Positions 6,645-64,000 of a DNA stretch of 64,000 bases are shown piece by piece. Origin of the DNA: an uncultured Candidatus Saccharibacteria bacterium (GTDB taxonomy: Bacteria > Patescibacteriota > Minisyncoccia > Phycocordibacterales > PALSA-1337). Within the stretch, counting starts at the first letter, position 1. Every line of letters begins with the position of its first letter. Under the pieces are notes generated by a model. The model was given only the letters and a program-made list of their open reading frames with translations. It was not told the origin of the DNA and searched no databases. The stretch is from assembly GCA_964412585.1 (NCBI GenBank), contig CAYPPJ010000006.1:31-64030 (forward strand). Reading direction: 5' to 3'. The position numbers and the translations under genes are program-made.

Positions 6645-6696
6645 AACCTAATCCTACTCTTCCTAGAAATTTTGTCTAATAACAGTTCTTAGCGCC

Positions 6697-7212
6697 CTAA
6701 AAACAAACCACAAATGATAGAAAAATTAAGATTATACCAGCAGTTGATGCTGAAATAGCAAGTGATAGATGACTATCTATATTCTCAGCAATTTTAAGTT
6801 CTGAAACTTCTGATACGTCGTTAACGTTTGCGTCAAATTCTGAATTTATCTTACTTAATTTTGAAAAATCTTTATCAATTATTGCTTTCTTAATTTCGCG
6901 CGTTTCCCGAACTGATTGATTAATTCTTTTTTCAGTATCATTAAATTGACCGAGTAATCTGTTTTTTGTATTCAACATCAAAAACAAAATTGATCCAACA
7001 ACAAAACATTCACCAAAGAAAAATAGCTTCATGCTAATAACACTCGAAAATGCTGTAAAACCAAATCCGGCAATTAGTCCGAGTACCCCTAAAAGCGAGA
7101 TAATATAGTTAACAGAAATTTGATATTCTTCGCGATGATTTTTAAGAAATTTCTCACGCAGCGAAATTATGAACTGCCCGTATTCAATTGCTTTTTCGAG
7201 TTCAGTTTTCAT
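6697..7212 (-). CDS. Small membrane protein (two central TM helices, a C-terminal TM, a coiled-coil-like charged segment) encoded directly upstream of the OLD nuclease.
   Basis: Hydrophobic segments ISLLGVLGLIAGFGFTAFSSVI, FFFGECFVVGSILFLML and GIILIFLSFVVCF. Same low-GC island. Its stop lies 52 bp from the OLD start, and its start lies 2 bp after the upstream gene's stop. Confidence 0.5.
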   Translation of the reverse strand: MKTELEKAIEYGQFIISLREKFLKNHREEYQISVNYIISLLGVLGLIAGFGFTAFSSVISMKLFFFGECFVVGSILFLMLNTKNRLLGQFNDTEKRINQSVRETREIKKAIIDKDFSKLSKINSEFDANVNDVSEVSELKIAENIDSHLSLAISASTAGIILIFLSFVVCF

Positions 7213-7214
7213 AT

Positions 7215-7745
7215 TTAAAAATTATAAACCCACCCAGGCTGCCACTTAAAATGCGTGGTCACCAGCTTTTCCAAGGGCACACCATTCAAGACATTCTCAA
7301 TGCCATACTGGGTGGCGCGATGACCGATGACCATCACTCGCTTGCCATCATAGTTTTTCTTGAGATCATCGAGAAATGATTTCATGCGAGCCGTGGTCTG
7401 GGTATAGCTCTCGCCATTAGGAAACGGCGTCGAGATGCGCTGCGGCTTTTCGGCATCAACGATCTCGCTGGGCTTCTGGGTCAGATCGCCATAATTGCAT
7501 TCGCGGAGCCTTGCATCGCGGATGATGGGCCACTTGGTGCCAAAGCCGATCTCGGCGCTCTTGTACGCACGCTGGAGGTCGGAGCAGAAAATGGCATCGA
7601 AGTGGTCGTCCTTGTAACGCTGGCCCATCTCGACCGACTGACGTTCACCGAGCGGCGAGAGCGCGACATCATTCCATCCGGATGACAGATGGGCTTCGTT
7701 GTCGAAGGTGGTGCCGTGGGCTTCGAAGATGAGGGTGAGGGGCAT
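7215..7745 (-). CDS. Histidine phosphatase (phosphoglycerate mutase) family protein with a variant active-site motif.
   Basis: LIFEAHGTT...GWNDVALSPLGERQ...VMVIGHRATQ family pattern. The canonical RHG reads AHG. Confidence 0.55.
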   Translation of the reverse strand: MPLTLIFEAHGTTFDNEAHLSSGWNDVALSPLGERQSVEMGQRYKDDHFDAIFCSDLQRAYKSAEIGFGTKWPIIRDARLRECNYGDLTQKPSEIVDAEKPQRISTPFPNGESYTQTTARMKSFLDDLKKNYDGKRVMVIGHRATQYGIENVLNGVPLEKLVTTHFKWQPGWVYNF

Positions 7746-7871
7746 GCCACTATAGTACTCCCCTCCAGTGCATTGATGAATATTGACATGAGTCTATATT
7801 CGTGCTTATATATTATTAACTGCACTTTATGTGCCTCAAAAGCACAGCAAACCACAACACAAAGGACACCC

Positions 7872-8378
7872 GTGAATTTCAAAAACTCACGACTCAAAAT
7901 TGCCTATTACGATGAACCTGACATGGCGCCAAATCCTCTACAATGTGTCGCCTATCATATCTACGGCAGACAAATCGTCTTTACCGGCTTACACAACGGT
8001 GATGACGGTCCGCGCGGATCTACGATCAACTACGCAGAAGAGGTCGTCCGAGCGATTGCTACGCAAGAAGCGATTGATGGACGTCGGTATACTTTCTACG
8101 ATCTGCAGACGTGCCGTGGGTATGGTGGGCGTGGCGGAGAATATTACCGAGGAAGTTATTGCCTCAATGAGCTCGAGCTCTCCTGGCCACAAGATGGCAA
8201 CACACCCAATCGTGACGTTAGATGGATTGAAGGTCATGCCAATGAGGAGGTTCTGTCCGATTTCGCAGAATTCATCTGGGATGATCTGCCCGTCGGAACA
8301 CCTATAAACATTGCTGTCCAACGAGGCGGACTCAAGCCGTTACTACCCCAGCAAAAACTGCTGAGTACACGCGCGTGA
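7872..8378 (+). CDS. Hypothetical protein; GTG start chosen after an AAAGGA RBS because the longer ATG ORF would be antisense to the phosphatase gene.
   Basis: ORF followed by a terminator hairpin. No recognisable motifs. Confidence 0.35.
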   Translation: MNFKNSRLKIAYYDEPDMAPNPLQCVAYHIYGRQIVFTGLHNGDDGPRGSTINYAEEVVRAIATQEAIDGRRYTFYDLQTCRGYGGRGGEYYRGSYCLNELELSWPQDGNTPNRDVRWIEGHANEEVLSDFAEFIWDDLPVGTPINIAVQRGGLKPLLPQQKLLSTRA

Positions 8379-26310: not shown

Positions 26311-26383
26311 GCGCCCATAGCTCAGTTGGTAGAGCAGATCCCTCTTAAGGATAAGGTCGTAGGTTCGATCCCTACTGGGCGCA
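26311..26383 (+). tRNA. tRNA-Lys(CTT).
   Basis: GCGCCCA acceptor, D-arm GCTCAGTTGGTAGAGC, anticodon loop CT-CTT-AA, T-arm GGTTCGATCCC, 3' TGGGCGCA. Confidence 0.75.
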
Positions 26384-26513
26384 CAATACAAGGACATATA
26401 ATCAGACAGTCCACAATCCCCATCTTGACATGGTTATATACTCATGCTACTTTTCGAAATGGATTTCATACACTGAATTCGACTCCCCAAAACCCCAACC
26501 CCCGTTTGAACTA

Positions 26514-26921
26514 ATGAAAGACAAAATTCTCGTACTCGGCTCCACTAACATTGGCCGTGTAATCGAATCCGCTCTTGGCACCACTTTTGGAGTCACCACA
26601 CTCCCCATCAACAATGGCTTCGACGGTATGCAGGCACGACACATGTTGCTGTCTGAACCGAACATCAGAAAAGTGTTTGTTGTGCCCAACAACGGACAAT
26701 TGTGTGACGGTCTCAAGACGGTTATCGCCGACGCGCAAAAACGCCGCAAGCCCTGCACCGTCCTTGCTGATGCAGGTTGTAGTGCATCAGGATCACTTCG
26801 GGATCAATCCGAACGTGTTGGCGCCAACTTCGTGAGCGGTGACATCGACCGGGAAACTATCGTCGCGCTCGCCACATCGTCAGTTGCTCAGGCATCTCAT
26901 TTGCCCCATGTGACACATTAG
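26514..26921 (+). CDS. Hypothetical protein with a receiver-like (CheY-like) fold pattern but lacking the phospho-acceptor Asp residues.
   Basis: KILVLGS...VFVVPNNG pattern; weak call. Confidence 0.3.
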   Translation: MKDKILVLGSTNIGRVIESALGTTFGVTTLPINNGFDGMQARHMLLSEPNIRKVFVVPNNGQLCDGLKTVIADAQKRRKPCTVLADAGCSASGSLRDQSERVGANFVSGDIDRETIVALATSSVAQASHLPHVTH

Positions 26922-27103
26922 CCGGTCTCACACACTGCACAGTTTTATTGTTCTTTATGATTGGATAGGTAGACCAAGGCTCGCCAGGCACATGTCAGGC
27001 GGGTTTTTTATTTGTATATAAAGACTTGACTATATTATATATGTGAAGTAAAAATACAACTGAATTTAATGATAGTCATGGAGTTCACAACCGAAAGGCA
27101 CAC

Positions 27104-27832
27104 ATGAATCCCCAGCACCCCACGGAGCTTCATGTTGGAGCTCCGTACATGGATATTATCCCGACCGCTGATGGAGGGTTTCTCTTCACTTGGTCGGGAC
27201 CGCATCTGTATCAAGAAGTTTTCTTGAGCATGCACACAACGTTCCTGCAATGCGAACGAGGAATGTTCATCAGACTCAGCACACCAGCTTCACAGGGTAC
27301 TATCCGTATTGATCGAACCCTGTCCAAGCTTGTTGCACAATACGGCACCATTGAAATGCTCCACATTACCGTCATTGCAGGAGCAACGGTTGCGAATATA
27401 TCAATGTTCTACCAGAACCTTGATCGTTACCGTGCGCATTTGTTTACCTACGAAATGGCTGGCCTCAAGCAGCGTATGGGTGAACAGGCACGCGTGTTTT
27501 ACGAAACCTACCTTGAACCTCCAAAAGTTAAGACCGCAACAACGGTAACTACTAATGGACACGGTGATACTCGAGCGTCTCTCATGAGGTGCCTTTTGGC
27601 CAACATGGCATTCATCGGGATACTTCTCGGCTGGTCGTTGCGAAACCATCACTTACTAAAGCAGCCCGAACAACGAAAGCGAGCACTCCGCAGAGTTGCT
27701 CGATTACGGCGATCTCGCAAGAAGCCAACATCAGCCGCAAAACTAGGCAAACTGGTGGCTTCTCGACGAAAAGCTCTTCGCAAAAAAACACCTCAAAAAC
27801 GTCGTCCGCTACTCGCTATGCGTACCACATAA
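27104..27832 (+). CDS. Hypothetical protein with a central TM helix and a strongly basic C-terminal tail; high-GC island gene 1.
   Basis: FIGILLGWSL TM; RRVARLRRSRKKP...KRRPLL tail; own terminator. Confidence 0.45.
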   Translation: MNPQHPTELHVGAPYMDIIPTADGGFLFTWSGPHLYQEVFLSMHTTFLQCERGMFIRLSTPASQGTIRIDRTLSKLVAQYGTIEMLHITVIAGATVANISMFYQNLDRYRAHLFTYEMAGLKQRMGEQARVFYETYLEPPKVKTATTVTTNGHGDTRASLMRCLLANMAFIGILLGWSLRNHHLLKQPEQRKRALRRVARLRRSRKKPTSAAKLGKLVASRRKALRKKTPQKRRPLLAMRTT

Positions 27833-27833
27833 G

Positions 27834-27860
27834 CAGACCCTCCACCGAGGGTCTTTTTTA
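27834..27860 (+). terminator. Rho-independent terminator.
   Basis: AGACCCTC-CACC-GAGGGTCT hairpin followed by a T-run. Confidence 0.6.
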
Positions 27861-28008
27861 TACTTGACAGAATACTTTAAATATGCTAGTATATAACAAA
27901 AGTTTAACATTGCTGTTTGAATCTCTATACAAACCGTAGAGAGACAGCAACATTCATATGGCAGTAATGCCACGTTGAGTGCAACCCGCACATTCGGAGC
28001 CACATACC

Positions 28009-28806
28009 ATGAAAAAGATCCAACCGGCCGGAAAGGCCGAAACCAAACCCACTCGCCGCAGTCGCAAAGTAGTTGCAAAGGCATCCTCGACCCGTCGTCC
28101 CTCGAAAGAAAAAACGGAAAAAACGACGCCAGAGTTCCCTGCTTACGACGAAGATGCGTGGAAGTGGATGGCGGAGCAGTCAATCCCTGGAGCTTACTCG
28201 CCGATTATGTACATCGGCGTGGAAGTTTCCCACCAGATCTCGGCAATTCTCGGTCGTCCGATGACGCTCGAGGAAGCCCAGTACTTGGTGAAGATTGATG
28301 GCGACTTCGTTAAATGCGCCTATACGGGAACTGAGTTCCAGCCCGTCGAGTACGTCTTCCGGGTCCCCCCGGGACTCAAGGATAAGCTCGCCGCAGGGGC
28401 AAAGTTGACAGAAGTCGAACTCGTAACTGGGGGCGCCTTCTACTTCAACAAAGGCAAGGGTGAAATGATGCCGTTGAGCGGGTCGGTCTTCGAGTATGAT
28501 CGCCGAGCGCAAGCCTACCGCTGGTGCATGTCCAGTCCGCTGGTCATTGCCGCCAACGAGGCACGAAAGATTACCGGCCACATGAAGTGGGGCGCGCCCT
28601 CACATCAGATCAGCAAAATCATGAATGCACGGCAGGAAAACCGTGAGCGTCATGAAAAGATTGCCGGACTGATGAATGAGGTGTTTGCACCTCGCCGCGA
28701 CAGCCGCTTCGGCATCGGGAAGGAAGCCAAGGGAGAGCTGGGCAAGCTCAAGCTCCGTCATCGTAATGGTCGCCGGCAACGGCACCATGAAGTCACGGAG
28801 GACTAA
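28009..28806 (+). CDS. Hypothetical protein with a basic N-terminal region; high-GC island gene 2.
   Basis: ORF in a GC-rich segment; antisense ORFs are judged GC artefacts. Confidence 0.45.
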   Translation: MKKIQPAGKAETKPTRRSRKVVAKASSTRRPSKEKTEKTTPEFPAYDEDAWKWMAEQSIPGAYSPIMYIGVEVSHQISAILGRPMTLEEAQYLVKIDGDFVKCAYTGTEFQPVEYVFRVPPGLKDKLAAGAKLTEVELVTGGAFYFNKGKGEMMPLSGSVFEYDRRAQAYRWCMSSPLVIAANEARKITGHMKWGAPSHQISKIMNARQENRERHEKIAGLMNEVFAPRRDSRFGIGKEAKGELGKLKLRHRNGRRQRHHEVTED

Positions 28807-29070
28807 ACGCTTCGAAACCTTGTGAATTAAGGTACAAATAGAATAACCCAGCTCCAGATGAATCACCGTCTGGAGCTAAACCTTTTATACTGAAGAACCT
28901 ATATTCTTAGCCCTCCTTTTTATATAAATATTTTATGATAATAGGCTTGACAAACCTATTGAATATGTTATAATTGTAAACGTACCTGAAGACTTGATTG
29001 AAACGACTTTTGAAAACAAACCCTTGCCTGAAGACTTAGAGCTTTAGGCAGCATCCCAGAAAGAAAAAAC

Positions 29071-30171
29071 ATGAAACGCACGAAGCCCGCAGCAACGCTT
29101 CCCCCTCCTGCCGCAACGAGCCAAGCCCCGATCACGGCGGCAGCTCGGAAAGCAAAGGGGAACAGTCCTGCAAAGCCGGCTGCCGGCCACAAGCCGACAA
29201 CTGGTTCGAACCGACCCACTCCCCAGCCCAAAGCTGGAGCGGCCACCACCAAGACTACCGTCAAGGTCAGTACGACCTCGACTACAGGTCCCGGTAAAGG
29301 TGGTGGCAAGAAGCCGGCGGCTCGCAAGACCGCCACAACTTCTACTGCGCGCACGCGTCCGGTCAAACCCGGAACGCCGTCGCCGACCGCACCGAAAACC
29401 CCGACTAACCAGCCCGCCAAACAGCCTGCCAAAAAAGCTCGCAATTGGAGCTGGCTCTGGTGGATCTTGATTGCGGTGGCAGTCGCTGGCCTGGTGTTGT
29501 TTGTCTTGTCGAAGGTGTTCGGCCCCAAAGCCGCGACTCTTCCCAAGGCAGTGGTGGCGCCCGCCATCAGCAACAGCATCCCGGCGATCACGCCCACCAA
29601 CACGGTTGGTGCGGTAAGCAATGCCGTGAGCGCGGCAGCAACAAATATCGCTCCTTCGCTGGCGCCATCCGCGCCGACGAACGTCCCCGCCGCCGTCCCT
29701 ATCGCGATGAAGATCGAAGGGGATGGAAACAACGGCAACACGATGTTGGTGAATTATGGAACAGTCCATGTCACCGAGACCGTGGGCAACGCTTGGGCAA
29801 GCGTTGACGGTGGGCCGACAGCGGCATACCGTGGTCACCCCGCCCCAGTGGCTGCAGCGCCGCAAGGAACCTGGTTCCCTGCTGGCTGCCTCACCTGGAT
29901 GTCCGTCGAGGTCCCGCCCAACGAGCGGAACAAGGACACATACACTGTCGAGGTCAAGGTCGACCAAAAGCAGTGCATCAAAGTCCCTGTACCACCGCCG
30001 GGCTGGAAGATGTTCTACTCCTATCAGGCAAACGGGCCTCTGGAGAAGTTCATTGACGGAAAGCCAGTCGCGGACGGAAACCTCCCGTCAGGTGAAGTTG
30101 GGTTCTTTGGAGGACCCACGTGCACTGAGTGCACCCTGAAGATCAGCTTCAGGCACCTCATCAAAAACTGA
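29071..30171 (+). CDS. Hypothetical membrane-anchored protein with a long disordered Pro/Thr/Lys-rich N-terminal region and a C-terminal Cys-containing extracytoplasmic domain; high-GC island gene 3.
   Basis: WSWLWWILIAVAVAGLVLFVL TM helix; codirectional with neighbours; terminator downstream. Overlapping minus-strand ORFs rejected. Confidence 0.5.
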   Translation: MKRTKPAATLPPPAATSQAPITAAARKAKGNSPAKPAAGHKPTTGSNRPTPQPKAGAATTKTTVKVSTTSTTGPGKGGGKKPAARKTATTSTARTRPVKPGTPSPTAPKTPTNQPAKQPAKKARNWSWLWWILIAVAVAGLVLFVLSKVFGPKAATLPKAVVAPAISNSIPAITPTNTVGAVSNAVSAAATNIAPSLAPSAPTNVPAAVPIAMKIEGDGNNGNTMLVNYGTVHVTETVGNAWASVDGGPTAAYRGHPAPVAAAPQGTWFPAGCLTWMSVEVPPNERNKDTYTVEVKVDQKQCIKVPVPPPGWKMFYSYQANGPLEKFIDGKPVADGNLPSGEVGFFGGPTCTECTLKISFRHLIKN

Positions 30172-30187
30172 TCCTTGTTCGATTCAA

Positions 30188-30225
30188 AGCGCGCGGAATG
30201 GCAACATTCCGCGCGTCTTCTTTTA
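30188..30225 (+). terminator. Rho-independent terminator.
   Basis: GCGCGCGGAATG-GCAA-CATTCCGCGCG hairpin followed by a T-run. Confidence 0.6.
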
Positions 30226-30402
30226 TATACAAATATACGGCTCAACTGGAGGCTATTTTAGTGAGTAAATCATTGACATTTGGTACATAATGTGATACAA
30301 TTGATACATATAACACTGGTGCGTGTGCGGCACTAATGAAACTTGAAAAGGAATTCAAACCAACGTCATGAGCGCACAACATGACCTTATGGTACGAAAA
30401 TT

Positions 30403-31398
30403 ATGAAAAAAGAAGCTGAAGAAAAGCTGGTGGCAACACCAGTTCCCTATCGTCGTACATTGGCGAGGAAGTTGTTTGTCTTGACCGGTAACCTGGTCAT
30501 GATCGCATACTTCATCGTCTTGTCCGCGTGGGGACTCGAGTACATCACACCGTTTGCTTTTGGAGCATGCGTCTTGCTGATGTGCTACATCTCTGTCATC
30601 CTGATGTTTTTCGTCAAAGGATACATGATGTTCATCGCCCCGGTGCGCGAATTATGCGCCGGAGTTCTAACCAATCTGTTCTTTGGCCGTAAGGCACCAA
30701 AGACAGATGTTGAAAGCCTGAGTCTCGATTCGATACCATCGATCGAGGAAGTAGGCTGGGGAGTATGGAACTGGAAGTTCCCTTGGCAGTCTGTAACGTA
30801 CGTTGACCTCAAACGCCACATCCCTGTCGGCGGAACAGAAGGAATTGGGTACACGAAAGACCAAGTGGAAACACCGTTCATGTGGAAAGGCTCCGTAAGG
30901 GTTCCACAGGGATACTGTGGGACACTAGTGCGTATTGGGGACGAGGCCGCCATTAGAATGGCTGAAGCATTGACTGACGCCGCAGTTGCGGAAATGATCA
31001 ACAAGGTCAAGTACAAGCAGCTTCCCTCCAAGCAGACTCATCTTGCATACAGCCTCCGGGAATACTACGAGGGGGATGGCAACATGAGCGCACGAGAAGC
31101 GGGGATCGGTCTCGCTATCGAGAAACTGGTACTCAAGTACGCCAAGCGTAGCAAGCGCGTACAAGATGCCGCTGAACTTGAAGTTCAGGCTGATAGCGTG
31201 AACGCATCAGCGGAGCGACTCATGCTCCTAGACCAAGATACACCTCCTGAACGGCGGATGACTGGCAAAGAAGCAGTCGATCGCGTCCTCACCCTCGCAG
31301 GCCAAGGAAACTTGCGCGTTTATGAGGGCCTCAAAGGTGCCGAACCTCTGATCGAGCTGGAGGATGGTCCAAGAAACAAGAAAGGTGGAAAGGATTGA
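30403..31398 (+). CDS. Hypothetical membrane protein (two N-terminal TM helices plus a cytoplasmic domain); high-GC island gene 4.
   Basis: LFVLTGNLVMIAYFIVLSAWG and FAFGACVLLMCYISVILMFFV hydrophobic segments. Confidence 0.45.
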   Translation: MKKEAEEKLVATPVPYRRTLARKLFVLTGNLVMIAYFIVLSAWGLEYITPFAFGACVLLMCYISVILMFFVKGYMMFIAPVRELCAGVLTNLFFGRKAPKTDVESLSLDSIPSIEEVGWGVWNWKFPWQSVTYVDLKRHIPVGGTEGIGYTKDQVETPFMWKGSVRVPQGYCGTLVRIGDEAAIRMAEALTDAAVAEMINKVKYKQLPSKQTHLAYSLREYYEGDGNMSAREAGIGLAIEKLVLKYAKRSKRVQDAAELEVQADSVNASAERLMLLDQDTPPERRMTGKEAVDRVLTLAGQGNLRVYEGLKGAEPLIELEDGPRNKKGGKD

Positions 31399-31400
31399 TT

Positions 31401-31910
31401 ATGGCCGACGAGAAAAAAAATGGATTCATTATTGATGCCGCCATCGGCGGTATCAACCTCGAACCAGATTCGAAGCTGAAGTGGTATGTTCGCGCAATTG
31501 CTGGCAAACCACAACAGATCGGTCTCGGTGTACTGTTCCTGCTCATTGTCATCACGGTGTGGTACTTCCGCACGTTCGGCCTAGCCGGACTACTGAAGAA
31601 CTACGACCGTTGGCACACGGGCAACAACGAGCCCTTGTCTTCACGGCAGGCATCCGTACCTACCATTACCATAACCAAGGGTGTGTGGAGTGAAAAAGTT
31701 GACTCATCGGGCCGTTCACTCGATGAACTTAACATCACTCCGCCGGTACGGCGGGCAGTCATGGTGAACGGAGATCCGAACAGGATCTATCACCTCACAG
31801 CACAAAATGACACGACCAACCTCGGCAATGACGTAAAGTCGTGGCAGTGGATGATTGAGCCGGATGAATCCGTCTCTGTCGCCACGGTCGAATACCGACT
31901 ATCACGATAG
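31401..31910 (+). CDS. Hypothetical single-TM protein; high-GC island gene 5.
   Basis: IGLGVLFLLIVITVWYF TM; stop of the previous gene overlaps the start region; terminator downstream. Confidence 0.4.
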   Translation: MADEKKNGFIIDAAIGGINLEPDSKLKWYVRAIAGKPQQIGLGVLFLLIVITVWYFRTFGLAGLLKNYDRWHTGNNEPLSSRQASVPTITITKGVWSEKVDSSGRSLDELNITPPVRRAVMVNGDPNRIYHLTAQNDTTNLGNDVKSWQWMIEPDESVSVATVEYRLSR

Positions 31911-31925
31911 GACGTGACCAAGCAA

Positions 31926-31960
31926 CTGGCCTGGAAGGTAACACTTCCAGGCCGGCTTTT
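31926..31960 (+). terminator. Rho-independent terminator.
   Basis: GCCTGGAAG-GTAACA-CTTCCAGGC hairpin followed by a T7 run. Confidence 0.6.
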
Positions 31961-31999
31961 TTTATACACTTTTTATTATAAAGAAAATAAATGCTAACC

Positions 32000-32287
32000 C
32001 TATACACTATTGACCGTATTCGCAACCAGATTGATGATGCCCCATGCAGAGAGCATAATAAACATACCGATAAGACCTCCCCACATGCTCTTCTTGCCAC
32101 GATCATGCGCTTCCCCACCCGGCTCACCCCAAATCACTTGGAATACACCGTAGACAAAAACTACGACTGCAACTGCGAACATAAGTGTGATAACCGGATT
32201 GACAATATTATCAATTATTGGATTGACTACCTTGCCAACTGCATTAGCATCAATCTCGGCATGCGCCACCTTGAGAAACGGTAACAT
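32000..32287 (-). CDS. T4SS-pilin-like (TrbC/VirB2-like architecture) small membrane protein, paralog 1 of 5.
   Basis: Signal-like N-terminus, two hydrophobic helices separated by a short charged loop (GEPGGEAHDRGKKSMWG), 95 aa. Confidence 0.45.
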   Translation of the reverse strand: MLPFLKVAHAEIDANAVGKVVNPIIDNIVNPVITLMFAVAVVVFVYGVFQVIWGEPGGEAHDRGKKSMWGGLIGMFIMLSAWGIINLVANTVNSV

Positions 32288-50778: not shown

Positions 50779-51735
50779 CTATCTTACACTAATTGGTGGA
50801 AAAAGCAACCCGCGAGCCATGCGAGCGGAGCCGGGGTCGTATGACACCAACCCGCGAGCCATGCGAGCGGAGCCGTCCTCCAGGGTGAGGGCAACCCGCG
50901 AGCCATGCGAGGCAGGCTGGGGTTGCATGGCACCAACCACGTGTTCTGGGATACCAGCAAGATAAATCTCGTTAAGTTGCGATAGTGTTAGTGGCGTCTG
51001 AAACACTCCAACATCATCAATCATTCCTTGAAAAAAGAATATCCCTGCATATGCGTACCCAATCCTCGTAAACTGGGGTTGTGGTCCACAGGTATATGCG
51101 GGGACCCCGGCAGCAGTTACATCCCTTCCATTCACATACAAGGTCGCTTTTGTTCCCTCGACTATGATTGCGACATGCTGCCACTTATTGAGACTCAACA
51201 CACCGGTATTGCTAGAAAATGTGAGCGATTCACAAACATATTGGATACCAGCATTTGCATTTATACTAAAACCAGTATTACCTCCTCCTGTCCCCATGAA
51301 GCCGCGTACACCAGAAAACAACGTCGGGTATATCCACGCCATATACGTAAACGAGACCGGCGATGGGTAAACGGATGGAGGATTTGGGTTGATATCAACA
51401 AAGCTTGAAGACCCGTTAAAACTCAACGCATATCCAGTACCTGATGGCGTCGTTGCAACATATCCGTATGGTGACACCATACTTGTTGGCGATCCGTGCC
51501 GCTTGTATATAGACGCGTCTAGTGCCTGACCTGACCCCGTATTAAAATCATACCAACCAAATGCTGTAAGCGACAATAATCTATATACAGCCGATGAAAA
51601 AGATTGGCCTGCGGAGATCTGGGCTTTGTCTCGAACACCACTCAGTGCAACAAGCACCACTGACGAGAGCATGCTAATAATGGAAATCACCACCAGAAGC
51701 TCAATCAATGTGAAGCCTGTAGTGTATCGTTTCAT
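50779..51735 (-). CDS. Type IV pilin-like protein with a LamG/concanavalin-like domain and a C-terminal GSARMARGL tandem repeat, paralog 1 of 3.
   Basis: Prepilin N-terminus GFTLIELLVVISIISML; WQHVAIIVEGTKATLYVNG LamG-like motif; C-terminus encoded by a 3 x 43-bp DNA tandem repeat. Confidence 0.6.
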   Translation of the reverse strand: MKRYTTGFTLIELLVVISIISMLSSVVLVALSGVRDKAQISAGQSFSSAVYRLLSLTAFGWYDFNTGSGQALDASIYKRHGSPTSMVSPYGYVATTPSGTGYALSFNGSSSFVDINPNPPSVYPSPVSFTYMAWIYPTLFSGVRGFMGTGGGNTGFSINANAGIQYVCESLTFSSNTGVLSLNKWQHVAIIVEGTKATLYVNGRDVTAAGVPAYTCGPQPQFTRIGYAYAGIFFFQGMIDDVGVFQTPLTLSQLNEIYLAGIPEHVVGAMQPQPASHGSRVALTLEDGSARMARGLVSYDPGSARMARGLLFPPISVR

Positions 51736-51818
51736 TGAGTATTAAAATCAAACGCACGTAAACTTATCGCTCATATACAAGAGTAAATGCTGCGTTGTGG
51801 CGAATTTTCATCACAGCA

Positions 51819-52619
51819 TTATTGTAGCGCAAGTTGATGATTATTTCGACCTTCTGCATATATTGCCCGCACCTCCATAGCGGTCAATGATTCGGCAAAA
51901 ATCTGCACGTCGTCAATCAGGCCTTTAAATTTATAATTATTTGTCATGCCATTACCAATGGTAAAATCTTGTAACTGAAACAGGCTATTGGAAGTTGCGA
52001 CACTGCCTATCAATTTACCATCTATGTACATTGAGAGTTGACCGGATTTGGTGTCAAAATTGCAAAAAATATGATGCCATTTACTATCATAGATAAGAGC
52101 ATTGGGAACTGCGACACCAAATTGCTGCCAACATGTTGTGTTCGTGCCATTGTGATATATTTGCCGTCCACTACCATCATTATTAAATACAAGTAAATAT
52201 TCATACGATACGCCCGAATCGAGCGCGGCATTGTTTCGGTTAACCCAAAGTGAATATGCATAACTGGCATTTGAAAGTGTACGTGGTATTGATGGAGTAT
52301 ACGTTAGACGATTCACCTGATTCTGGGCATCAAAAGCTGAACCGGCGGAAAAGCTCGAAACGCGACCAATCGATACTGCTGTCGTAAAATTGTTCGATTG
52401 ATCAAGAGGTGCACCTGAGCCCTCATTGAAGTTCGCAAAGAAGATCATATCCGAACCAAGTTTATGATAGTTGTATGTCGCAAAAGTAACAATACTCCCT
52501 ATTCTTCCTTTATCACGCGCACCTTGTAGTGCCACCAACACAACTGATGACAACATGCTGATAATCGATAGGACCACCAGTAATTCAACAAGAGTAAAGG
52601 CTTTGGTATATCGTTTCAT
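51819..52619 (-). CDS. Type IV pilin-like protein with a LamG-like domain, paralog 2 of 3.
   Basis: AFTLVELLVVLSIISML N-terminus; WHHIFCNFDTKSGQLSMYIDG. Confidence 0.6.
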   Translation of the reverse strand: MKRYTKAFTLVELLVVLSIISMLSSVVLVALQGARDKGRIGSIVTFATYNYHKLGSDMIFFANFNEGSGAPLDQSNNFTTAVSIGRVSSFSAGSAFDAQNQVNRLTYTPSIPRTLSNASYAYSLWVNRNNAALDSGVSYEYLLVFNNDGSGRQIYHNGTNTTCWQQFGVAVPNALIYDSKWHHIFCNFDTKSGQLSMYIDGKLIGSVATSNSLFQLQDFTIGNGMTNNYKFKGLIDDVQIFAESLTAMEVRAIYAEGRNNHQLALQ

Positions 52620-52622
52620 TTT

Positions 52623-53498
52623 TTACTGTGCTTCAGCAAGTGTGTGTGTTGGTAAGCCGGCTGCATACATACGCTCAATGTCAGAAGCGGCGAGTGATTG
52701 CGTATATATAGCAACATCATCGATACCACCCTTGAAGGTCTGCGACGCACCATTGTTTAAGTAACCAAGACGGACACACGAAACACGCCTACTTACTCCC
52801 GTAGCACTGGCAAGCATAGGCCCTGGTATTTTTTTGCCATTTACGAAAAACGTGTGTGTGTTACTGGTTGCATTATATGTATAGGCCACATGAGTCCACT
52901 TTGCTTTTGGAATATAGCCGGTTCCGTCATACCACTGGTTGGATCCAACGCCACCATTATAAATGGCGACCTGAACTCCACTCGTAGCAGCAAACCAATA
53001 CAAGCTCGCTAAACGATTGTTCACATCACCACAGTTTGTCGTAATATCACTATAAAAAATCCATCCGTCAGCAGATGTCAAACTCGGCTTGACCCACATC
53101 GAGACTGTGTAGTTCGAAAATGTATTGTCGGGCATTTGTGCAGCAAGTGCAAACTGGCCTCCAACATTTGTACCAAGACCATCCAGTACGTACGATTGAC
53201 CAGCACCGTTTGGATTATCTGTCGTCGAGAAAGTTCCTGCTGCACCATTGGTTCCAACAAAAGCATATTGTGACTGATTGACTAGGGCACCTTTATTGAA
53301 GTCGGAATAGAGTATCGCATCTGCACCAAATGCATGATAGGTATAGCCAGAGAATCGTACCCCCGCACTTACCTGTCCTTTGTCTCTTGCCCCTTGGATA
53401 GCCACCAACACCACTGACGCAAGCATCGAGATAATCGACATAACCACTAGAAGTTCGACGAGAGTGAATGCTTTTGCATCAAGACGACGGTGGATCAT
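52623..53498 (-). CDS. Type IV pilin-like protein with a LamG-like domain, paralog 3 of 3.
   Basis: AFTLVELLVVMSIISML N-terminus; WTHVAYTYNATSNTHTFFVNG. Confidence 0.6.
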   Translation of the reverse strand: MIHRRLDAKAFTLVELLVVMSIISMLASVVLVAIQGARDKGQVSAGVRFSGYTYHAFGADAILYSDFNKGALVNQSQYAFVGTNGAAGTFSTTDNPNGAGQSYVLDGLGTNVGGQFALAAQMPDNTFSNYTVSMWVKPSLTSADGWIFYSDITTNCGDVNNRLASLYWFAATSGVQVAIYNGGVGSNQWYDGTGYIPKAKWTHVAYTYNATSNTHTFFVNGKKIPGPMLASATGVSRRVSCVRLGYLNNGASQTFKGGIDDVAIYTQSLAASDIERMYAAGLPTHTLAEAQ

Positions 53499-59905: not shown

Positions 59906-62900
59906 CTATGATGTTGGGGCGTCTGATGGGACTGGAGCAGGTTCCGGTGCTGGCGCAGGAGCTGGTGCTGGTATCGATTCTGGAGTTGGTGCAGGCGCAG
60001 GAGCTGGAGCTGGGGCCGGAGTCGGTTCTGGAGCTGGAGTTGGTGCAGGCTCTGGAGCTGCGGCTGGTACAGTGGTATCAGTTGAAGAGGTAGTTGTGTC
60101 AGTTGTCGTTGTTGTATCGGTCACAGAACTTCCTTCTGAAGCCGGTTCCCCTGTACCTGAGGAACTAGTACCTGCGCCAGTTGTCATCTCTGGTGAAGTT
60201 GTAGCTGATTCTGCTGGTGGAGTCACGACGTTGACGGTCGTTGTATTATTCCCTGTTGGAGTTGTTGTTTGGGCGACCGGTGGAGTCGAAACTACTGTCG
60301 CACTTTGCGCTGTACTAGGTGCTTCGGCAGTACATGCCCCTGGACGCTTGTCCCAATCACCATTGCGAATCTGAACACAAAAGACTTGTCCTGTTGCAAC
60401 ATCATTGATCTCAAGACCCTTTGATACAGCCACGGTCTGAGCTTCGACACGGTCTGAATAGACAATGTGTGCTGTCATTTTATCCATAGTCCAGTCCCCT
60501 GCGCTTTGCAATGATTCTTTGACAGCAACCGCGACTCGAGAAATAAATGAAGGCGTCGAGCTTGCCAGTGTCTCGGCAGTGCTCGATGCAATCTGGACAC
60601 GTACGGCAGATGCGATAACAGTGATAAATGTTGAGCTTGAAGTGAGTGCTGAAAGACTATTCTCAATGCGTGCAGTAGTCCTATCGTCAAAGAGAGCGAC
60701 GATCGAAGAGGTTGTGGCAGTCAATTCGTCGATACGAGCTGAAAGAATCGAAACTGTGTTATTTGTTGTATCGAGCGCACTTGCCAACGTCCTCGTGGTT
60801 TGAGAAGTTGATGCCAAGTTGGTTGTTAATGACTGCATATCGGCTGCAGTGTTCGAGCTGAGTACATTGAGAGTTGCCGTCGTACTTGCGAGAGTAAATT
60901 CAAACCCTGAATTTTGGCTGCCGAGTTGAATCGTAGTCGAAGCGAGCGAACCGATCTGTCCCTGTTGTTCTTGGATTGCCTTGACTACCGTAGCGATCAT
61001 GGCACGGTCATCGATACCTGTCAGTTCTCCCTTTTCGTTATGCGTTGCAAAATGGTCGTTAACTGCACCCGCATCTTCTGCAATAAAACCATATCGAGTA
61101 CGACCATCACCTTCATTATAGACAAATGAAACCGGCTGCAGATCACGGATAGCTGCAAGGCCATTCAAGGACAAAGCGGTAATGTCATGCTTTGTCGCAC
61201 GTATAGACGAAGTACATGCATCTGAACCAGAGTTGTAAACAACTTCTTTACCCGCAGTCAAGCAGAGTGACCCTGCGCCGAAGTTTCCAGTCAAACCGCT
61301 CATAGCAACAGTTCCTGCAACGGCAAGTGTTCTCCATGGTGTGGTGGTACCGATGCCGACACTGCCATCTTTATCAATAAGCAGTAAGGTGCTGTTTGAA
61401 CTCGATGCTACCACTAACAAAGGAGTCGTGCTTCCTGATCCGCCCTGTATTGAGACTCGGCCAAATGGAGTAGTTGTACCGACACCGAACATACCGTTGC
61501 CGGCGATCGCGTCGTTGCTAACAAGCAAACTCGCATTAGTGACTTTTACATCAGCCTGGCCGGCTCCACCACCAGTAGGTCCTGTTGTGAAGACGAGCCT
61601 ATCGTTGTTGGAGCTACCACCACTATTGTATGTCTGTATAGCAAATGCATCGGTCTTGGTGCCGCCATTGTATCCCAAAGATGTAAGATATCTTTTTACA
61701 TTAGTAGACGTCAAACCAGCTTGTATATTTTCAGTCTGGAATGTTCCGGTAACTTTTACGTTACCAGTCGCACGACCAACACGGAATCGTTCGGTATAGG
61801 GGAATGAACCACTGCTTGAATCGGCAAAGACCAAGTCGCCATACTGCCCTGATCTCGTATCGCCATACAACGTCGAACCCGCTGCCCCAGGAATAAACCA
61901 CTGCAAGCCCATCTGTGAATTTGAACTAGCACCAGACACCCACCTAATCAATGATTGGGTAGTACTTGCCATGTTTATCTGACCATTGTCTTGAATAGAT
62001 ATCATCTCTTTATCAGCAGAATCAGAAAGCACAAATGCACGACCTGTACCCGTGCCAGATCCTTTGATAGCAAGTTTTGCAGATGGTGAGGTCGTACCAA
62101 TACCAACATTACCACCACCATTGAAGATAGCGTCGTAGTTGTTGGTTCCACCGGTGACAGAAGAAACGTAGAGACCAATATTATTCGCGTTCGATCCATT
62201 CCATGTGCCTGTTGAGGAGATGTTAATGCCTGTTTTGTTAATAGAAGCAGTTGATGATGTTGCAGTGTTTAGCACTTTGATACCGTCGAACGCTGCAGTT
62301 TTGGCCGTCGAAATCGCTTCCGACGATATGTCGAGTAATGCGGTAGGAAGCTTTGCTGCCCCGATAGACCAGAGACCATTTCTGATACGTCCTGTTTCAA
62401 CATCAAGATTGGAGAATATGATGTTTCCACTTGCCGAAAATGCGCTATTCAATTCCGTATCACCGTTGTTCGTATTGTAATCAATAATGAACTTACTGCC
62501 TGATGCGTTACTGCGCAGGAGACCAGACTTAGTAAGGGTGTTATCAGTCTTTAATGATAGGTAGAAACCAGGCTGCTGATAACTTCGCAATTCACCGCCA
62601 CCGATATTTCCATCAGCACCTGACGAGATAACACCGTCGACATCAAATAGGTTCGTACTTGCAGTCGATGAACCGACCTTTACTTTTCCGTTATCAAGCA
62701 CCTGGAAGAGCATGCGGTTATTCGAATCTGAAATAATAGTATTTCGTGTAGTCCCAGTCGTACCTCCTTTTATTGCAAGATTTGAAGCAAATGGTGTCGA
62801 GGAGCCAATGCCTAATTTACCTCCCGTAAAGACAAGTCCAGTTCCAGATGTAATCGAGCTTCCATCAAAATAATTCACACCATTGGTAGTCTGGGAATTT

Positions 62901-64000
62901 GCATTGGTACCACCATACGCAGTCGCAAGTGTACCGCCTGTGATGTTATCTGCATTCAAGCCTGTTATCCCTACACCATCACCAAAGAATGACCCGCCCG
63001 TTGTAATATCTCCCGCTGACTCGAAGGTAGAGTCCGTGTACATATTTCCGAAAAATTCGTGATTATAGGATGCTGAATTGGGTCCACCATATCCAAAAAG
63101 TGAAGAATTGGCTTCAAACTCCATCGGGCCTGTTGAATTGGCGATAATACCATTCACGTCAAGTTTGTATGCTGGCGTAACGCCAATGCCAACATTACCA
63201 TTCACGACCAGACTTCCATCAGTACCCAAAACTCCGCCAATTACCCTGTAGAGATTCGTATCTGATCCTGAATTGTTATCACCTGCAGAAGAGAAGGCAA
63301 ACTTATAATCTGATGGCACACGGAATTCCTTGAGTGAATCGGTAAGGTTAAGAGCGAGAGTTCCCTGCTCCCAGACACCGAGATTCGATCCATTTGATGC
63401 AAAACCATCGAGAGGATAATCCTTGAAGCTAATTGAAGGCCCATTCACACCTGCACCTGCTATAACACTTCCATTTGGGAATGAAGCCTTTGTTGAACTA
63501 ATAAAGCTGTTAGTTGCCAACTTTGTATTACCATTCACCTGTAGTCCGCCCGCAAGCGTACTCGTAGCAGTCGTGGATGTCGCTGTGTAATATGATGAGA
63601 CAACTTCACCAACAACAGAGAGTTTAGCGTATGGTGAGCTGGTTCCAATACCAACATTCCCTCCATTAAAGAATGATGTGGCATTATTTGTTATGTTAAG
63701 ATTGCCATTCGCTGAGGTAAGCGCCGTATCATTCAAATACATTGAGCCAGTACCTGTGCGCAATGTTCCCTTCACCCACAAGTTTGCAGCGAAAGATGAT
63801 GTTGCATTTGCTCCTGTGCCATTGACATCAATAAAGCCGGCGAAAGTGCTTGTTGCGGTAGTGGATGTTGCCGTAAAGTATGCCGCTGTTGGACCACTTG
63901 TAGCAGTAAGTGTAGTCCCAGAAGTAAAGGCTGCCAACATTCCCGCAGTACCACCGGTAACACCTGAACCACCAGTGATACCCAGTGTCGAGGTTGCTAC
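59906..64000 (-). CDS. Giant tail-fibre-like surface protein, partial (N-terminus beyond the window). It has Gly/Thr/Ser-rich beta-helix-like repeats, a C-terminal intramolecular chaperone (peptidase S74) domain, and a Pro-Ala/Thr-rich tail.
   Basis: SSIRATKHDITAL...GFIAEDAGAV...ATHNEKGELTGIDDRAMIATVVKAIQEQQ matches the endosialidase-chaperone domain pattern; PAPAPAPEP low-complexity C-terminus. Confidence 0.6.
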   Translation of the reverse strand, partial: VATSTLGITGGSGVTGGTAGMLAAFTSGTTLTATSGPTAAYFTATSTTATSTFAGFIDVNGTGANATSSFAANLWVKGTLRTGTGSMYLNDTALTSANGNLNITNNATSFFNGGNVGIGTSSPYAKLSVVGEVVSSYYTATSTTATSTLAGGLQVNGNTKLATNSFISSTKASFPNGSVIAGAGVNGPSISFKDYPLDGFASNGSNLGVWEQGTLALNLTDSLKEFRVPSDYKFAFSSAGDNNSGSDTNLYRVIGGVLGTDGSLVVNGNVGIGVTPAYKLDVNGIIANSTGPMEFEANSSLFGYGGPNSASYNHEFFGNMYTDSTFESAGDITTGGSFFGDGVGITGLNADNITGGTLATAYGGTNANSQTTNGVNYFDGSSITSGTGLVFTGGKLGIGSSTPFASNLAIKGGTTGTTRNTIISDSNNRMLFQVLDNGKVKVGSSTASTNLFDVDGVISSGADGNIGGGELRSYQQPGFYLSLKTDNTLTKSGLLRSNASGSKFIIDYNTNNGDTELNSAFSASGNIIFSNLDVETGRIRNGLWSIGAAKLPTALLDISSEAISTAKTAAFDGIKVLNTATSSTASINKTGINISSTGTWNGSNANNIGLYVSSVTGGTNNYDAIFNGGGNVGIGTTSPSAKLAIKGSGTGTGRAFVLSDSADKEMISIQDNGQINMASTTQSLIRWVSGASSNSQMGLQWFIPGAAGSTLYGDTRSGQYGDLVFADSSSGSFPYTERFRVGRATGNVKVTGTFQTENIQAGLTSTNVKRYLTSLGYNGGTKTDAFAIQTYNSGGSSNNDRLVFTTGPTGGGAGQADVKVTNASLLVSNDAIAGNGMFGVGTTTPFGRVSIQGGSGSTTPLLVVASSSNSTLLLIDKDGSVGIGTTTPWRTLAVAGTVAMSGLTGNFGAGSLCLTAGKEVVYNSGSDACTSSIRATKHDITALSLNGLAAIRDLQPVSFVYNEGDGRTRYGFIAEDAGAVNDHFATHNEKGELTGIDDRAMIATVVKAIQEQQGQIGSLASTTIQLGSQNSGFEFTLASTTATLNVLSSNTAADMQSLTTNLASTSQTTRTLASALDTTNNTVSILSARIDELTATTSSIVALFDDRTTARIENSLSALTSSSTFITVIASAVRVQIASSTAETLASSTPSFISRVAVAVKESLQSAGDWTMDKMTAHIVYSDRVEAQTVAVSKGLEINDVATGQVFCVQIRNGDWDKRPGACTAEAPSTAQSATVVSTPPVAQTTTPTGNNTTTVNVVTPPAESATTSPEMTTGAGTSSSGTGEPASEGSSVTDTTTTTDTTTSSTDTTVPAAAPEPAPTPAPEPTPAPAPAPAPAPTPESIPAPAPAPAPEPAPVPSDAPTS

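What the first reader, a model, noticed from the sequence alone, without database searches (positions are those of the whole stretch)
59906..64000. Giant (>1344 aa) tail-fibre-like surface protein with a phage-type intramolecular chaperone (S74) domain
The C-terminal part contains the endosialidase-chaperone / peptidase S74 pattern (S.IR.TK.DI...GFIAEDAG...ATHNEKGELTGIDDRAMIA). In phage tail spikes this domain autoproteolytically releases a trimeric beta-helix. Upstream are long Gly/Thr/Ser/Asn-rich repeats typical of beta-helical fibres. Downstream are a coiled-coil-like stretch and a PAPAPEP-rich tail. In a cellular genome this suggests a tail-fibre-derived adhesin, possibly used for host-cell attachment, or a prophage remnant.
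Basis: partly seen in the sequence, partly recalled or inferred. Interest (0 to 1): 0.55.

Follow-up and report, generated by a model that had tools for sequence, protein, structure and literature searches.

The report
Phage-like surface fibre of a Parcubacterium
This is a chromosomal gene of an ultrasmall Patescibacteria (Parcubacteria) bacterium for a very long surface fibre that resembles a phage tail fibre and carries a self-cleaving folding domain; it is probably an attachment fibre, and it belongs to a large, little-studied family in these bacteria.

Summary
A minus-strand ORF (stop at 59906-59908) stays open to the window end: 1364 codons here, at least 1641 aa on identical public contigs, and the 5' end is never assembled.

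Residues 935-980 match Pfam Peptidase_S74 (35 bits against a cutoff of 22). The Ser932/Lys937 dyad is invariant in 40 homologues. An AlphaFold model (core pLDDT >90) matches the MyRF ICA and endosialidase chaperone structures.

Upstream lies a G/T/S/N-rich shaft with six VGIGTxxPxxxL loop motifs. This motif is shared with MyRF and the Bdellovibrio MAT fibres. Downstream lie a heptad-periodic helical stretch, a small two-cysteine beta domain and a Thr/Pro/Ala tail.

The visible 60 kb is housekeeping, with no phage genes. A Ca. Taylorbacteria MAG has the gene in the same place, so it is not a prophage fibre. Against that ortholog, neighbouring genes are 82-98% identical but the fibre is a mosaic: the tip plus S74 core is 36% identical, and the C-terminal cassette 82%.

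Best reading: an exported, trimeric, MAT-like adhesive fibre that self-cleaves at Ser932.

What differs from known fibres: S74 is internal, and it is followed by a conserved cassette that non-S74 giant fibres also carry.

Function and cleavage are inferred, not shown.

The parts
59906..64000 (-). Visible part of the fibre gene: 1364 codons plus the stop codon at 59906-59908. The 5' end lies beyond the window.
   Evidence: The same frame extends to 1641 aa on L001/L019/L020 and is still truncated there.
61208..64000 (-). Fibre shaft and tip, residues 1-931 of the window protein. It is G/T/S/A/N-rich and built of modules separated by capping-loop motifs. This is the predicted mature fibre after cleavage.
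   Evidence: Composition. The modules are variably shared with homologues. A single-sequence PDB search found nothing.
63620..63661 (-). Capping-loop motif 1 (residue 114, GNVGIGTSSPYAKL).
   Evidence: DNA repeat family D2.
63158..63199 (-). Capping-loop motif 2 (residue 268, GNVGIGVTPAYKLD), a degenerate copy.
62780..62821 (-). Capping-loop motif 3 (residue 394, GKLGIGSSTPFASN).
62072..62113 (-). Capping-loop motif 4 (residue 630, GNVGIGTTSPSAKL).
61454..61495 (-). Capping-loop motif 5 (residue 836, GMFGVGTTTPFGRV).
61325..61366 (-). Capping-loop motif 6 (residue 879, GSVGIGTTTPWRTL), the last one before the S74 domain. This stretch aligns with MyRF 'GRVGINTDRPDEAL' and with the Bdellovibrio MAT fibres 8ond, 8ojn and 8ol4.
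   Evidence: invariant G13, P19 and W20.
61214..61264 (-). Conserved cysteine pair C913/C929 immediately before the cleavage serine; a possible disulfide.
   Evidence: C44 is invariant, and a cysteine is the majority residue at the second position in the A2 consensus.
60992..61207 (-). S74 intramolecular-chaperone/protease core, residues 932-1003. The predicted catalytic Ser932 is the codon at 61205-61207 and Lys937 the codon at 61190-61192. The predicted scissile bond is Ser931|Ser932.
   Evidence: The cleavage position is inferred by analogy with Bd3182 S782 (PMC10769870).
60491..60991 (-). Ser/Thr/Ala/Leu-rich helical region with heptad periodicity, residues 1004-1170; a putative trimeric coiled coil.
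   Evidence: AF2 helices; period 3.5 with 8/1000 shuffles reaching it; 75-85% identical to the L003 ortholog.
60326..60490 (-). Small beta domain, residues 1171-1225, carrying the conserved pair C1208/C1223 (…LEINDVATGQVFCVQIRNGDWDKRPGAC).
   Evidence: AF2 predicts five strands with pLDDT about 84. The module occurs in 194 cluster representatives of 1.84e9, with or without S74 upstream.
59909..60325 (-). Low-complexity Thr/Pro/Ala/Ser tail, residues 1226-1364. The last 55 residues are P42 A29 %. No TM segment and no sorting signal.

Best explanation
The gene encodes one subunit of a long, homotrimeric cell-surface fibre of a Parcubacteria-group bacterium close to a Ca. Taylorbacteria MAG. It is evolutionarily related to phage tail fibres and closest in design to the Bdellovibrio 'mosaic adhesive trimer' (MAT) fibres.

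Inferred mechanism, in order:
1. The protein is exported by Sec. Full-length relatives with the same C-terminal cassette carry a signal peptide and a beta-rich N-terminal domain, which probably holds the fibre on the cell.
2. The C-terminal region trimerises first and templates folding of the intertwined beta-helical shaft. This region comprises the S74 intramolecular chaperone, the heptad coiled coil and the small disulfide beta domain.
3. The Ser932/Lys937 dyad then cuts the chain before Ser932.
4. This releases a 433-residue C-terminal fragment and exposes the fibre tip. The tip and the variable shaft modules bind a ligand on another cell (host or prey) or on a surface.

Shown here: the S74 domain with an intact dyad and the IMC fold, the repeated capping-loop motif, the cellular non-prophage context, and the mosaic hypervariability. 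Inferred: trimer formation, export, cleavage, and adhesion.
For: - S74 identity: Pfam hit above cutoff. The homologue profile hits solved S74 fibres and the MyRF ICA domain. The AF2 core has pLDDT >90 and Foldseek gives probability 1.0 to 7dc3 and 0.92-0.97 to 3gw6. There are 195 viral S74 matches.
- Catalytic residues: Ser932, Lys937, G971 and A974 are invariant in 40 and in 33 homologues.
- Shaft: the capping-loop motif occurs 6 times. It aligns with MyRF and with Bdellovibrio MAT structures. PMC10769870 describes this same motif, S74 self-cleavage (Bd3182 S782A) and surface display.
- Cellular context. Synteny with L003 has neighbours 82-98% identical.
- Mosaicism: blocks of 75-95% identity alternate with blocks of 0-35%. 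The tip plus S74 core is 82% identical to an unrelated-position protein, P0121, but 36% to the ortholog.
- Export: full-length relatives have a signal peptide plus a beta-rich domain. Two conserved Cys pairs fit an extracytoplasmic protein.
- Family: 464 hits, those with source names almost all from Parcubacteria/Patescibacteria, many labelled 'tail fiber domain-containing protein'.
Against: - The N-terminus of this gene was never seen, so export and anchoring rest on homologues only.
- Homology of the relatives' N-terminal domain to the MAT N-terminal domain was not established. Foldseek against PDB gave only generic beta-sandwich hits at E >= 0.03, and afdb50 was unavailable.
- Unlike known S74 fibres, about 360 residues follow the S74 core. 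That cassette also occurs in giant fibres without S74, so it may have a lasting role (anchor or trimerisation) rather than being discarded.
- The 'D' of the SDxxxK motif is Ile here.
- Trimerisation could not be modelled; only monomer AF2 was possible.
- Hosts of Parcubacteria are unknown, so the binding target is pure inference.
Confidence: 0.65

Rival explanations
1. It is an ordinary tail fibre of a prophage or prophage remnant, and the rest of the element lies beyond base 64000.
For: S74 domains are typical of phage tail fibres and spikes. The DNA upstream of the gene cannot be seen.
Against: - There are no phage genes in the 59.9 kb on the visible side and no PHROG hit.
- The gene occupies the same position, next to the same RRM-MFS-LOG-TGT genes, in a different MAG.
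- Loci of the full-length homologues P0003 and P0008 show GatB, Obg, MurJ, LepA and a surface-protein cluster but no capsid, terminase or portal genes.
- Relatives have signal peptides, which phage fibres lack.
- No close relative exists in IMG/VR.
Confidence: 0.04
2. The S74 cut is a release switch rather than only a folding check. The C-terminal cassette (coiled coil, disulfide beta domain, PT/PA-rich tail) tethers the nascent fibre to the cell wall or an assembly site. Autocleavage then frees the fibre from it, following the MyRF 'cleave to release' logic.
For: - The cassette is an independent, conserved module found at the C-terminus of giant fibres with and without S74.
- It is 82% conserved between orthologs while S74 and the tip are swapped.
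- Pro/Thr-rich tails are wall-spanning linkers in Gram-positive surface proteins (general knowledge).
- Distant S74 relatives in IMG/VR contigs end in a C-terminal TM helix directly after S74.
Against: - There is no TM segment, LPXTG or other anchor in the tail.
- The beta domain gave only insignificant SH3/Tudor-like fold hits, E 0.4-2.
- Nothing shows wall binding.
- This reading is compatible with, and hard to separate from, the best explanation.
Confidence: 0.15
3. The fibre is a structural or protective envelope component, for example a glycocalyx-like coat or a decoy for phages, rather than an adhesin for a host cell.
For: The rapid, mosaic divergence of the fibre and of the neighbouring pilin-like genes would also be expected under phage-driven selection on exposed surface structures.
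Against: The characterised cellular relatives (Bdellovibrio MAT fibres) bind prey glycans (PMC10769870). Phage S74 fibres are receptor-binding proteins.
Confidence: 0.1
4. It is the fibre of a contractile or non-contractile phage-tail-like particle (eCIS or tailocin) encoded upstream.
For: PF13884 occurs in eCIS tail fibres (10.1101/2020.09.22.308684, found). The upstream DNA is unseen.
Against: No sheath, tube or baseplate genes are present in the window or next to full-length homologues. The conserved upstream cluster in homologues consists of fn3, WxLIP_PGBD-like and unknown small proteins.
Confidence: 0.03

Closest known systems
Bdellovibrio bacteriovorus MAT (mosaic adhesive trimer) fibres, S74 subgroup, e.g. 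Bd3182 (Caulton et al. 2024, PMC10769870; PDB 8ond, 8ojn and 8ol4 for related members)
   Same: - It is chromosomally encoded in a bacterium, not a phage.
- It is very long with a beta-rich shaft.
- It carries the repeated capping-loop motif VG(I)G/N-x-x-x-P-x-x-x-L.
- It has an S74 chaperone/protease with a Ser...Lys(+5) dyad.
- It shows mosaic module exchange.
- Relatives have a signal peptide plus a beta-rich N-terminal domain.
   Different: - The host is a Patescibacteria bacterium, a group absent from that paper's list of MAT-bearing taxa.
- S74 is not terminal: a coiled coil, a two-Cys beta domain and a PT/PA tail follow it.
- It is longer (at least 1641 aa, relatives 3000-5000 aa, against about 1000 aa).
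- Homology of the N-terminal domain to the MAT one is untested.
- The sequence link to solved MAT fibres covers only about 30-40 residues (E 4e-4 to 1e-3).
Phage tail fibres and spikes with a C-terminal intramolecular chaperone (endosialidase K1F 3GW6; T5 pb1 4UW8/8HQZ; 8JOV; S16 gp37 6F45)
   Same: The S74 fold, the catalytic Ser/Lys pair, the GxIAxE motif, and a preceding triple-beta-helix-type stalk.
   Different: It is not in a phage genome and has no PHROG match. The shaft is far longer, and about 360 residues follow the chaperone core. The IMG/VR relatives examined (L027-L034) end 7-131 residues after S74.
Eukaryotic MYRF ICA domain (7DC3)
   Same: It is the best structural match to the model (Foldseek E 8e-4, TM 0.57-0.61). 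The VGI(N/G)TxxPxxxL stalk loop is shared, and S74 is internal to the protein in both.
   Different: MYRF has a DNA-binding domain before the ICA domain and a TM helix after it. Here there is no TM segment anywhere in the visible 1364 aa, and the context is extracellular.

Membership tests
Peptidase S74 / intramolecular chaperone auto-processing domain (PF13884) | Profile match above the curated threshold | tested here: met
   35.1 bits against a cutoff of 22, E 1.6e-8, residues 935-980.
Peptidase S74 / intramolecular chaperone auto-processing domain (PF13884) | Catalytic Ser with Lys five residues downstream (SDxxxK) | tested here: met
   The sequence is S932-I-R-A-T-K937. Ser and Lys are invariant in alignments A1 and A2. 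The 'D' position is Ile in this protein.
Peptidase S74 / intramolecular chaperone auto-processing domain (PF13884) | IMC fold as in 3GW6 and 7DC3 | tested here: met
   AF2 core pLDDT >90. Foldseek: 7dc3 probability 1.0 and TM 0.57-0.61; 3gw6 probability 0.92-0.97. 195 BFVD S74 hits.
Peptidase S74 / intramolecular chaperone auto-processing domain (PF13884) | The domain forms the C-terminal end of the fibre protein | tested here: not met
   About 360 residues follow the core. The IMG/VR relatives examined end 7-131 aa after it.
Peptidase S74 / intramolecular chaperone auto-processing domain (PF13884) | Autoproteolytic release after trimer folding | not testable with these tools
   This needs expression of the wild type against S932A and K937A mutants.
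MAT (mosaic adhesive trimer) fibre superfamily | Signal peptide followed by a conserved ~130-aa beta-rich N-terminal domain | not testable with these tools
   The 5' end of this gene is absent from the window and from all public contigs. Relatives sharing the C-terminal cassette have a signal peptide plus a beta-rich domain with pLDDT 83-93. Its homology to the Bdellovibrio domain could not be tested: afdb50 was unavailable and the PDB search was uninformative.
MAT (mosaic adhesive trimer) fibre superfamily | Beta-helical shaft with recurring capping-loop motif V-G-(I)-G/N-pi-x-x-P-x-x-x-L | tested here: met
   Six copies in the window and eight in the 1641-aa version. The profile aligns this motif to 8ond, 8ojn, 8ol4 and MyRF.
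MAT (mosaic adhesive trimer) fibre superfamily | Mosaic exchange of tip and shaft modules between family members | tested here: met
MAT (mosaic adhesive trimer) fibre superfamily | Trimeric state and display on the cell surface | not testable with these tools
   Only monomer prediction was possible. No localisation data exist.
Prophage tail fibre | Embedded among phage structural, packaging, lysis or integration genes | tested here: not met
   None on the visible side. The gene has a conserved chromosomal position in L003. The upstream side was not visible.
MYRF-type membrane-tethered factor | TM helix C-terminal to the ICA domain | tested here: not met
   The maximum 19-residue Kyte-Doolittle mean is 1.38 in residues 932-1364.

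The most novel reading that the evidence does not exclude
Parcubacteria, whose hosts and attachment mechanisms are unknown, may use hypervariable, cassette-shuffled, phage-derived trimeric fibres as their host-range determinants, here sitting about 6 kb from equally hypervariable pilin-like genes. In that reading, the conserved post-S74 cassette (coiled coil, disulfide beta domain, PT/PA tail), also shared with non-S74 giant fibres, is a previously undescribed wall-tethered assembly platform from which the S74 protease releases the finished fibre.
Probability: 0.15. Interest if true: 0.75.

Novelty: new variant of a known kind. Interest (0 to 1): 0.45.

Why it matters
How Patescibacteria outside the Saccharibacteria find and hold their hosts is unknown. 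A 2024 review (PMC11665869) names only type IV pili and unnamed surface-associated proteins predicted to act as adhesins, both known from a Saccharibacteria study.

A chromosomal, self-processing, phage-like fibre that is mosaic between near-identical genomic backgrounds is a concrete, testable candidate for the specificity determinant. Its tip modules could be expressed and used to fish for host cells or glycans.

The finding also extends the MAT/S74 fibre design from predatory Proteobacteria to the candidate phyla radiation. It identifies a recurrent C-terminal cassette that Pfam and NCBIfam do not recognise.

This particular gene is, however, one of hundreds of auto-annotated 'tail fiber domain-containing' proteins. 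The surprise is therefore moderate.

Full report
**1. What is there**

On the minus strand, a reading frame ends with a stop codon at 59906-59908. It is open for 1364 codons to the last base of the window. JGI contigs that carry the identical sequence continue the frame to 1641 aa and still begin inside the gene. Every public contig long enough to reach that far breaks at the same nucleotide. A related 3083-aa protein (P0121) is truncated at the same 'GNVGIGTINPTYK' motif. The repeats evidently defeat short-read assembly.

Numbering below is that of the 1364-residue window protein. Residue i starts at base 64000-3(i-1).

**2. Anatomy**

- **Residues 1-931, shaft and tip.** The composition is G15 T13 S12 A9 N8 %. 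There are six copies of G-x-[VLF]-G-[IV]-G-T-x-x-P-x-x-x-L, at residues 114, 268, 394, 630, 836 and 879. These are also visible as a 45-nt DNA repeat family. No other ORF in the window has this motif.
- **Residues 913 and 929.** A conserved cysteine pair.
- **Residues 932-1003, S74 core.** Pfam PF13884 matches at E 1.6e-8 and 35.1 bits against a cutoff of 22.
- **Residues 1004-1170, helical region.** It is S/T/A/L-rich and predicted helical. Hydrophobic residues show a 3.5-residue period, reached by 8 of 1000 shuffles.
- **Residues 1171-1225, beta domain.** Five strands with a second conserved cysteine pair, C1208/C1223, and pLDDT about 84.
- **Residues 1226-1364, tail.** It is T24 P22 A17 S12 % and ends in PAPAPEP-type repeats, encoded by degenerate tandem repeats.

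No segment is hydrophobic enough for a membrane helix; the maximum 19-residue Kyte-Doolittle mean is 1.38.

**3. The S74 domain is genuine and looks active**

In alignments of 40 and of 33 homologous regions, the invariant columns are Ser932, Lys937, Gly971, Ala974 and Cys913, plus G/P/W of the preceding loop. Ser and Lys have the +5 spacing of the SDxxxK dyad described for S74 proteins (PMC10769870). The D position is Ile here.

A profile of the alignment finds solved S74 fibres: 8jov at 2e-14, the S16 long tail fibre 6f45 at 3e-9, an 'L-shaped tail fiber assembly' entry 8hqz at 3e-8, and the MyRF ICA domain 7dc3 at 1e-5.

The AlphaFold model of residues 870-1230 has pLDDT >90 across the S74 core. 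Foldseek ranks MyRF ICA first (E 8e-4, probability 1.0, TM 0.57-0.61), followed by the endosialidase chaperone 3gw6 (probability 0.92-0.97). It also finds 195 viral S74 proteins at E <= 1e-3.

By analogy with Bd3182, where the mature fibre ends at A781 and S782 is catalytic, cleavage would fall between Ser931 and Ser932. It would release a 433-residue fragment. That cleavage occurs is inference.

**4. Cellular, not prophage**

The other 59.9 kb encode the following:

- ParB, MiaA, MgsA, alanine racemase, ClpB, SMC, NusB, GroEL
- solute-binding proteins, RNase J, ribosomal protein L25
- class II aldolase, PfkB kinase, TGT, a LOG-like protein, an MFS transporter and an RRM protein
- five tRNAs

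There are no capsid, terminase, portal, tail or integrase genes. The fibre itself has no PHROG or NCBIfam match.

A Candidatus Taylorbacteria MAG (L003; Patescibacteria group, Parcubacteria group) has the same gene order. Its neighbours are 82-98% identical to the window's: RRM 98, MFS 94, LOG 93, L25 92, FBA 91, PfkB 83 and TGT 82 %. The gene is therefore a stable resident of this chromosomal position.

Loci of the full-length homologues P0003 and P0008 are likewise housekeeping (GatB, Obg, MurJ, LepA). They also share a conserved upstream cluster of five non-phage genes. The window's own upstream side remains unseen; this is the main gap.

**5. Family**

The whole protein finds 464 relatives. 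Those with source names are almost all from Parcubacteria/Patescibacteria MAGs, and many are auto-annotated 'tail fiber domain-containing protein'. 96 of the top 120 carry the S74 region.

Full-length members with the same C-terminal cassette (P0003, P0012, P0123, P0126; 1898-3400 aa) begin with a signal peptide ending AxA. A beta-rich domain follows ('INYQGKLT…VADGTY…NGLFSV…FNQTLYL…PRK'), with AF2 pLDDT 83-93 over about 95 residues. That domain is widespread in Parcubacteria and is mostly seen on truncated records. Other family members start instead with an HTH_17-like domain.

**6. Mosaicism**

Against the positional ortholog in L003, identity swings between blocks:

| Residues | Identity to L003 ortholog |
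|---|---|
| 44-123 | 85-95% |
| 284-363 | 70-80% |
| 364-1003 (distal modules and S74 core) | 0-35%, or absent |
| 1004-1243 | 75-93% |

The tip plus S74 core (residues 879-1003) is 82% identical to P0121 and 66-69% identical to several proteins with otherwise different architecture. It is only 36% identical to the ortholog. Module 268-393 has essentially no relative among the 120 best hits, and module 394-629 has one.

The three pilin-like genes 6 kb away (N_methyl + Laminin_G_3) are also only 23-36% identical between the two genomes. Exposed surface proteins are thus being exchanged or diversified on a conserved backbone. This is the pattern expected for specificity determinants.

**7. The post-S74 cassette**

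An exhaustive HMMER search with residues 1125-1230 finds 194 cluster representatives among 1.84 billion (99 at E <= 1e-10). The match always lies near the C-terminus of large proteins, up to 4986 aa. Only about 55 of 136 new representatives have an S74 core upstream. The others place different domains before the same ASST-rich helices, two-Cys beta domain and PT-rich tail.

IMG/VR holds no close relative. Its distant S74 relatives match only the tip plus S74 core and end 7-131 residues later. Four of them end with a C-terminal TM helix.

The cassette is therefore an independent module of giant fibre proteins related to this one, not part of the phage-type chaperone. Pfam and NCBIfam do not recognise it. 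Its fold matches for the beta domain (SH3/Tudor/bL19-like) are not significant.

**8. Closest known system**

The profile also matches the Bdellovibrio MAT fibres 8ond (Bd2133), 8ojn and 8ol4 through the capping-loop motif, at E 4e-4 to 1e-3.

Caulton et al. 2024 (PMC10769870) describe 21 MAT proteins. Each has a signal peptide, a conserved N-terminal beta domain, a trimeric beta-helical shaft with this very loop motif (also noted in MyRF), and either an S74 chaperone/protease or other adhesive tips. The S74 domain shows self-cleavage that an S782A mutation abolishes. The proteins are surface-displayed, and one binds prey glycans.

Their list of MAT-bearing taxa covers Oligoflexia, PVC, Alpha- and Deltaproteobacteria, FCB and OP3. 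It does not include Patescibacteria. I found no paper linking S74 fibres to Patescibacteria.

**9. Verdict**

The prophage alternative is not.
- The most likely mechanism is an exported homotrimeric fibre whose C-terminal S74 chaperone templates folding and then cuts itself off at Ser932, exposing a variable binding tip.
- It is a new variant of a known kind: a MAT/S74-type fibre in a Parcubacterium, with S74 internal and followed by a conserved, uncharacterised cassette.
- Interest is moderate. The family is large and already auto-annotated. It nonetheless offers a concrete handle on host recognition in a lineage where that is an open question.

Noticed in passing
window 50779-53498 (minus strand): Three tandem type IV pilin-like genes (N_methyl + Laminin_G_3). 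They are only 23-36% identical to their counterparts in the syntenic Taylorbacteria MAG L003, while flanking housekeeping genes are 82-98% identical. This is a second hypervariable surface locus about 6 kb from the fibre gene.
   Followed up: partly
L026 4436-9997, L025 4410-10011, L008 12407-17080, L013 189-4263: A conserved gene cluster lies immediately upstream of full-length fibre homologues. It consists of a divergent HTH_17/MerR gene followed by five genes: about 300 aa (HTH-like N-terminus), about 225 aa, about 325 aa (weak WxLIP_PGBD peptidoglycan-binding hit), about 250 aa (a paralog of the 225-aa protein) and about 510 aa (fn3). There is no copy inside the window. Whether it precedes this gene is unknown.
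   Followed up: partly
proteins P0018, P0026-P0028, P0035, P0037, P0130, P0166: Some giant fibre homologues start with an HTH_17/excisionase-like domain ('…YISSSRAAE..YTSDYIGQLCRGGK..GRSWF') instead of a signal peptide. This suggests a cytoplasmic N-terminal domain on an otherwise extracellular fibre.
   Followed up: no
L027 5194-5769, L028, L029, L032 (IMG/VR contigs): Distant S74 relatives on contigs classed as viral end with a C-terminal TM helix right after the S74 domain ('EENWKWIVFGIFGLVLIYQQREIIKLKNK'). This architecture is reminiscent of MYRF.
   Followed up: no
window 5052-6644 (minus strand); low-GC patch 6001-8000: An OLD-family nuclease (AAA_15 + TOPRIM; PADLOC Old 2.8e-50, also GajA/AriA-like) lies next to small ORFs without hits, in a patch of GC 0.40. 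It is probably a small defence island.
   Followed up: partly
window 26311-32000: Directly after tRNA-Lys (26311-26384) there are five or six ORFs without Pfam hits and with no significant PHROG hit. One is a Pro/Thr/Lys-rich membrane protein (29071-30171). GC rises to 0.56 and AT skew to 0.19. This could be an integrated element of unknown kind.
   Followed up: partly
L001/L019/L020 position 1-3; P0121 residue 1: All public contigs long enough to span this gene start at the same base inside it, and a 3083-aa relative is cut at the same motif. This is a systematic assembly break at a repeated module. Gene lengths in this family (and many 'partial' records) are therefore underestimates.
   Followed up: yes
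L026 16376-17977: The fibre homologue P0008 is followed by a 533-aa Gly_rich_2 (PF21722) protein with a PHROG 'tail fiber assembly' match. This may be a second fibre-related gene in that locus; it is not present downstream of the window's gene.
   Followed up: no
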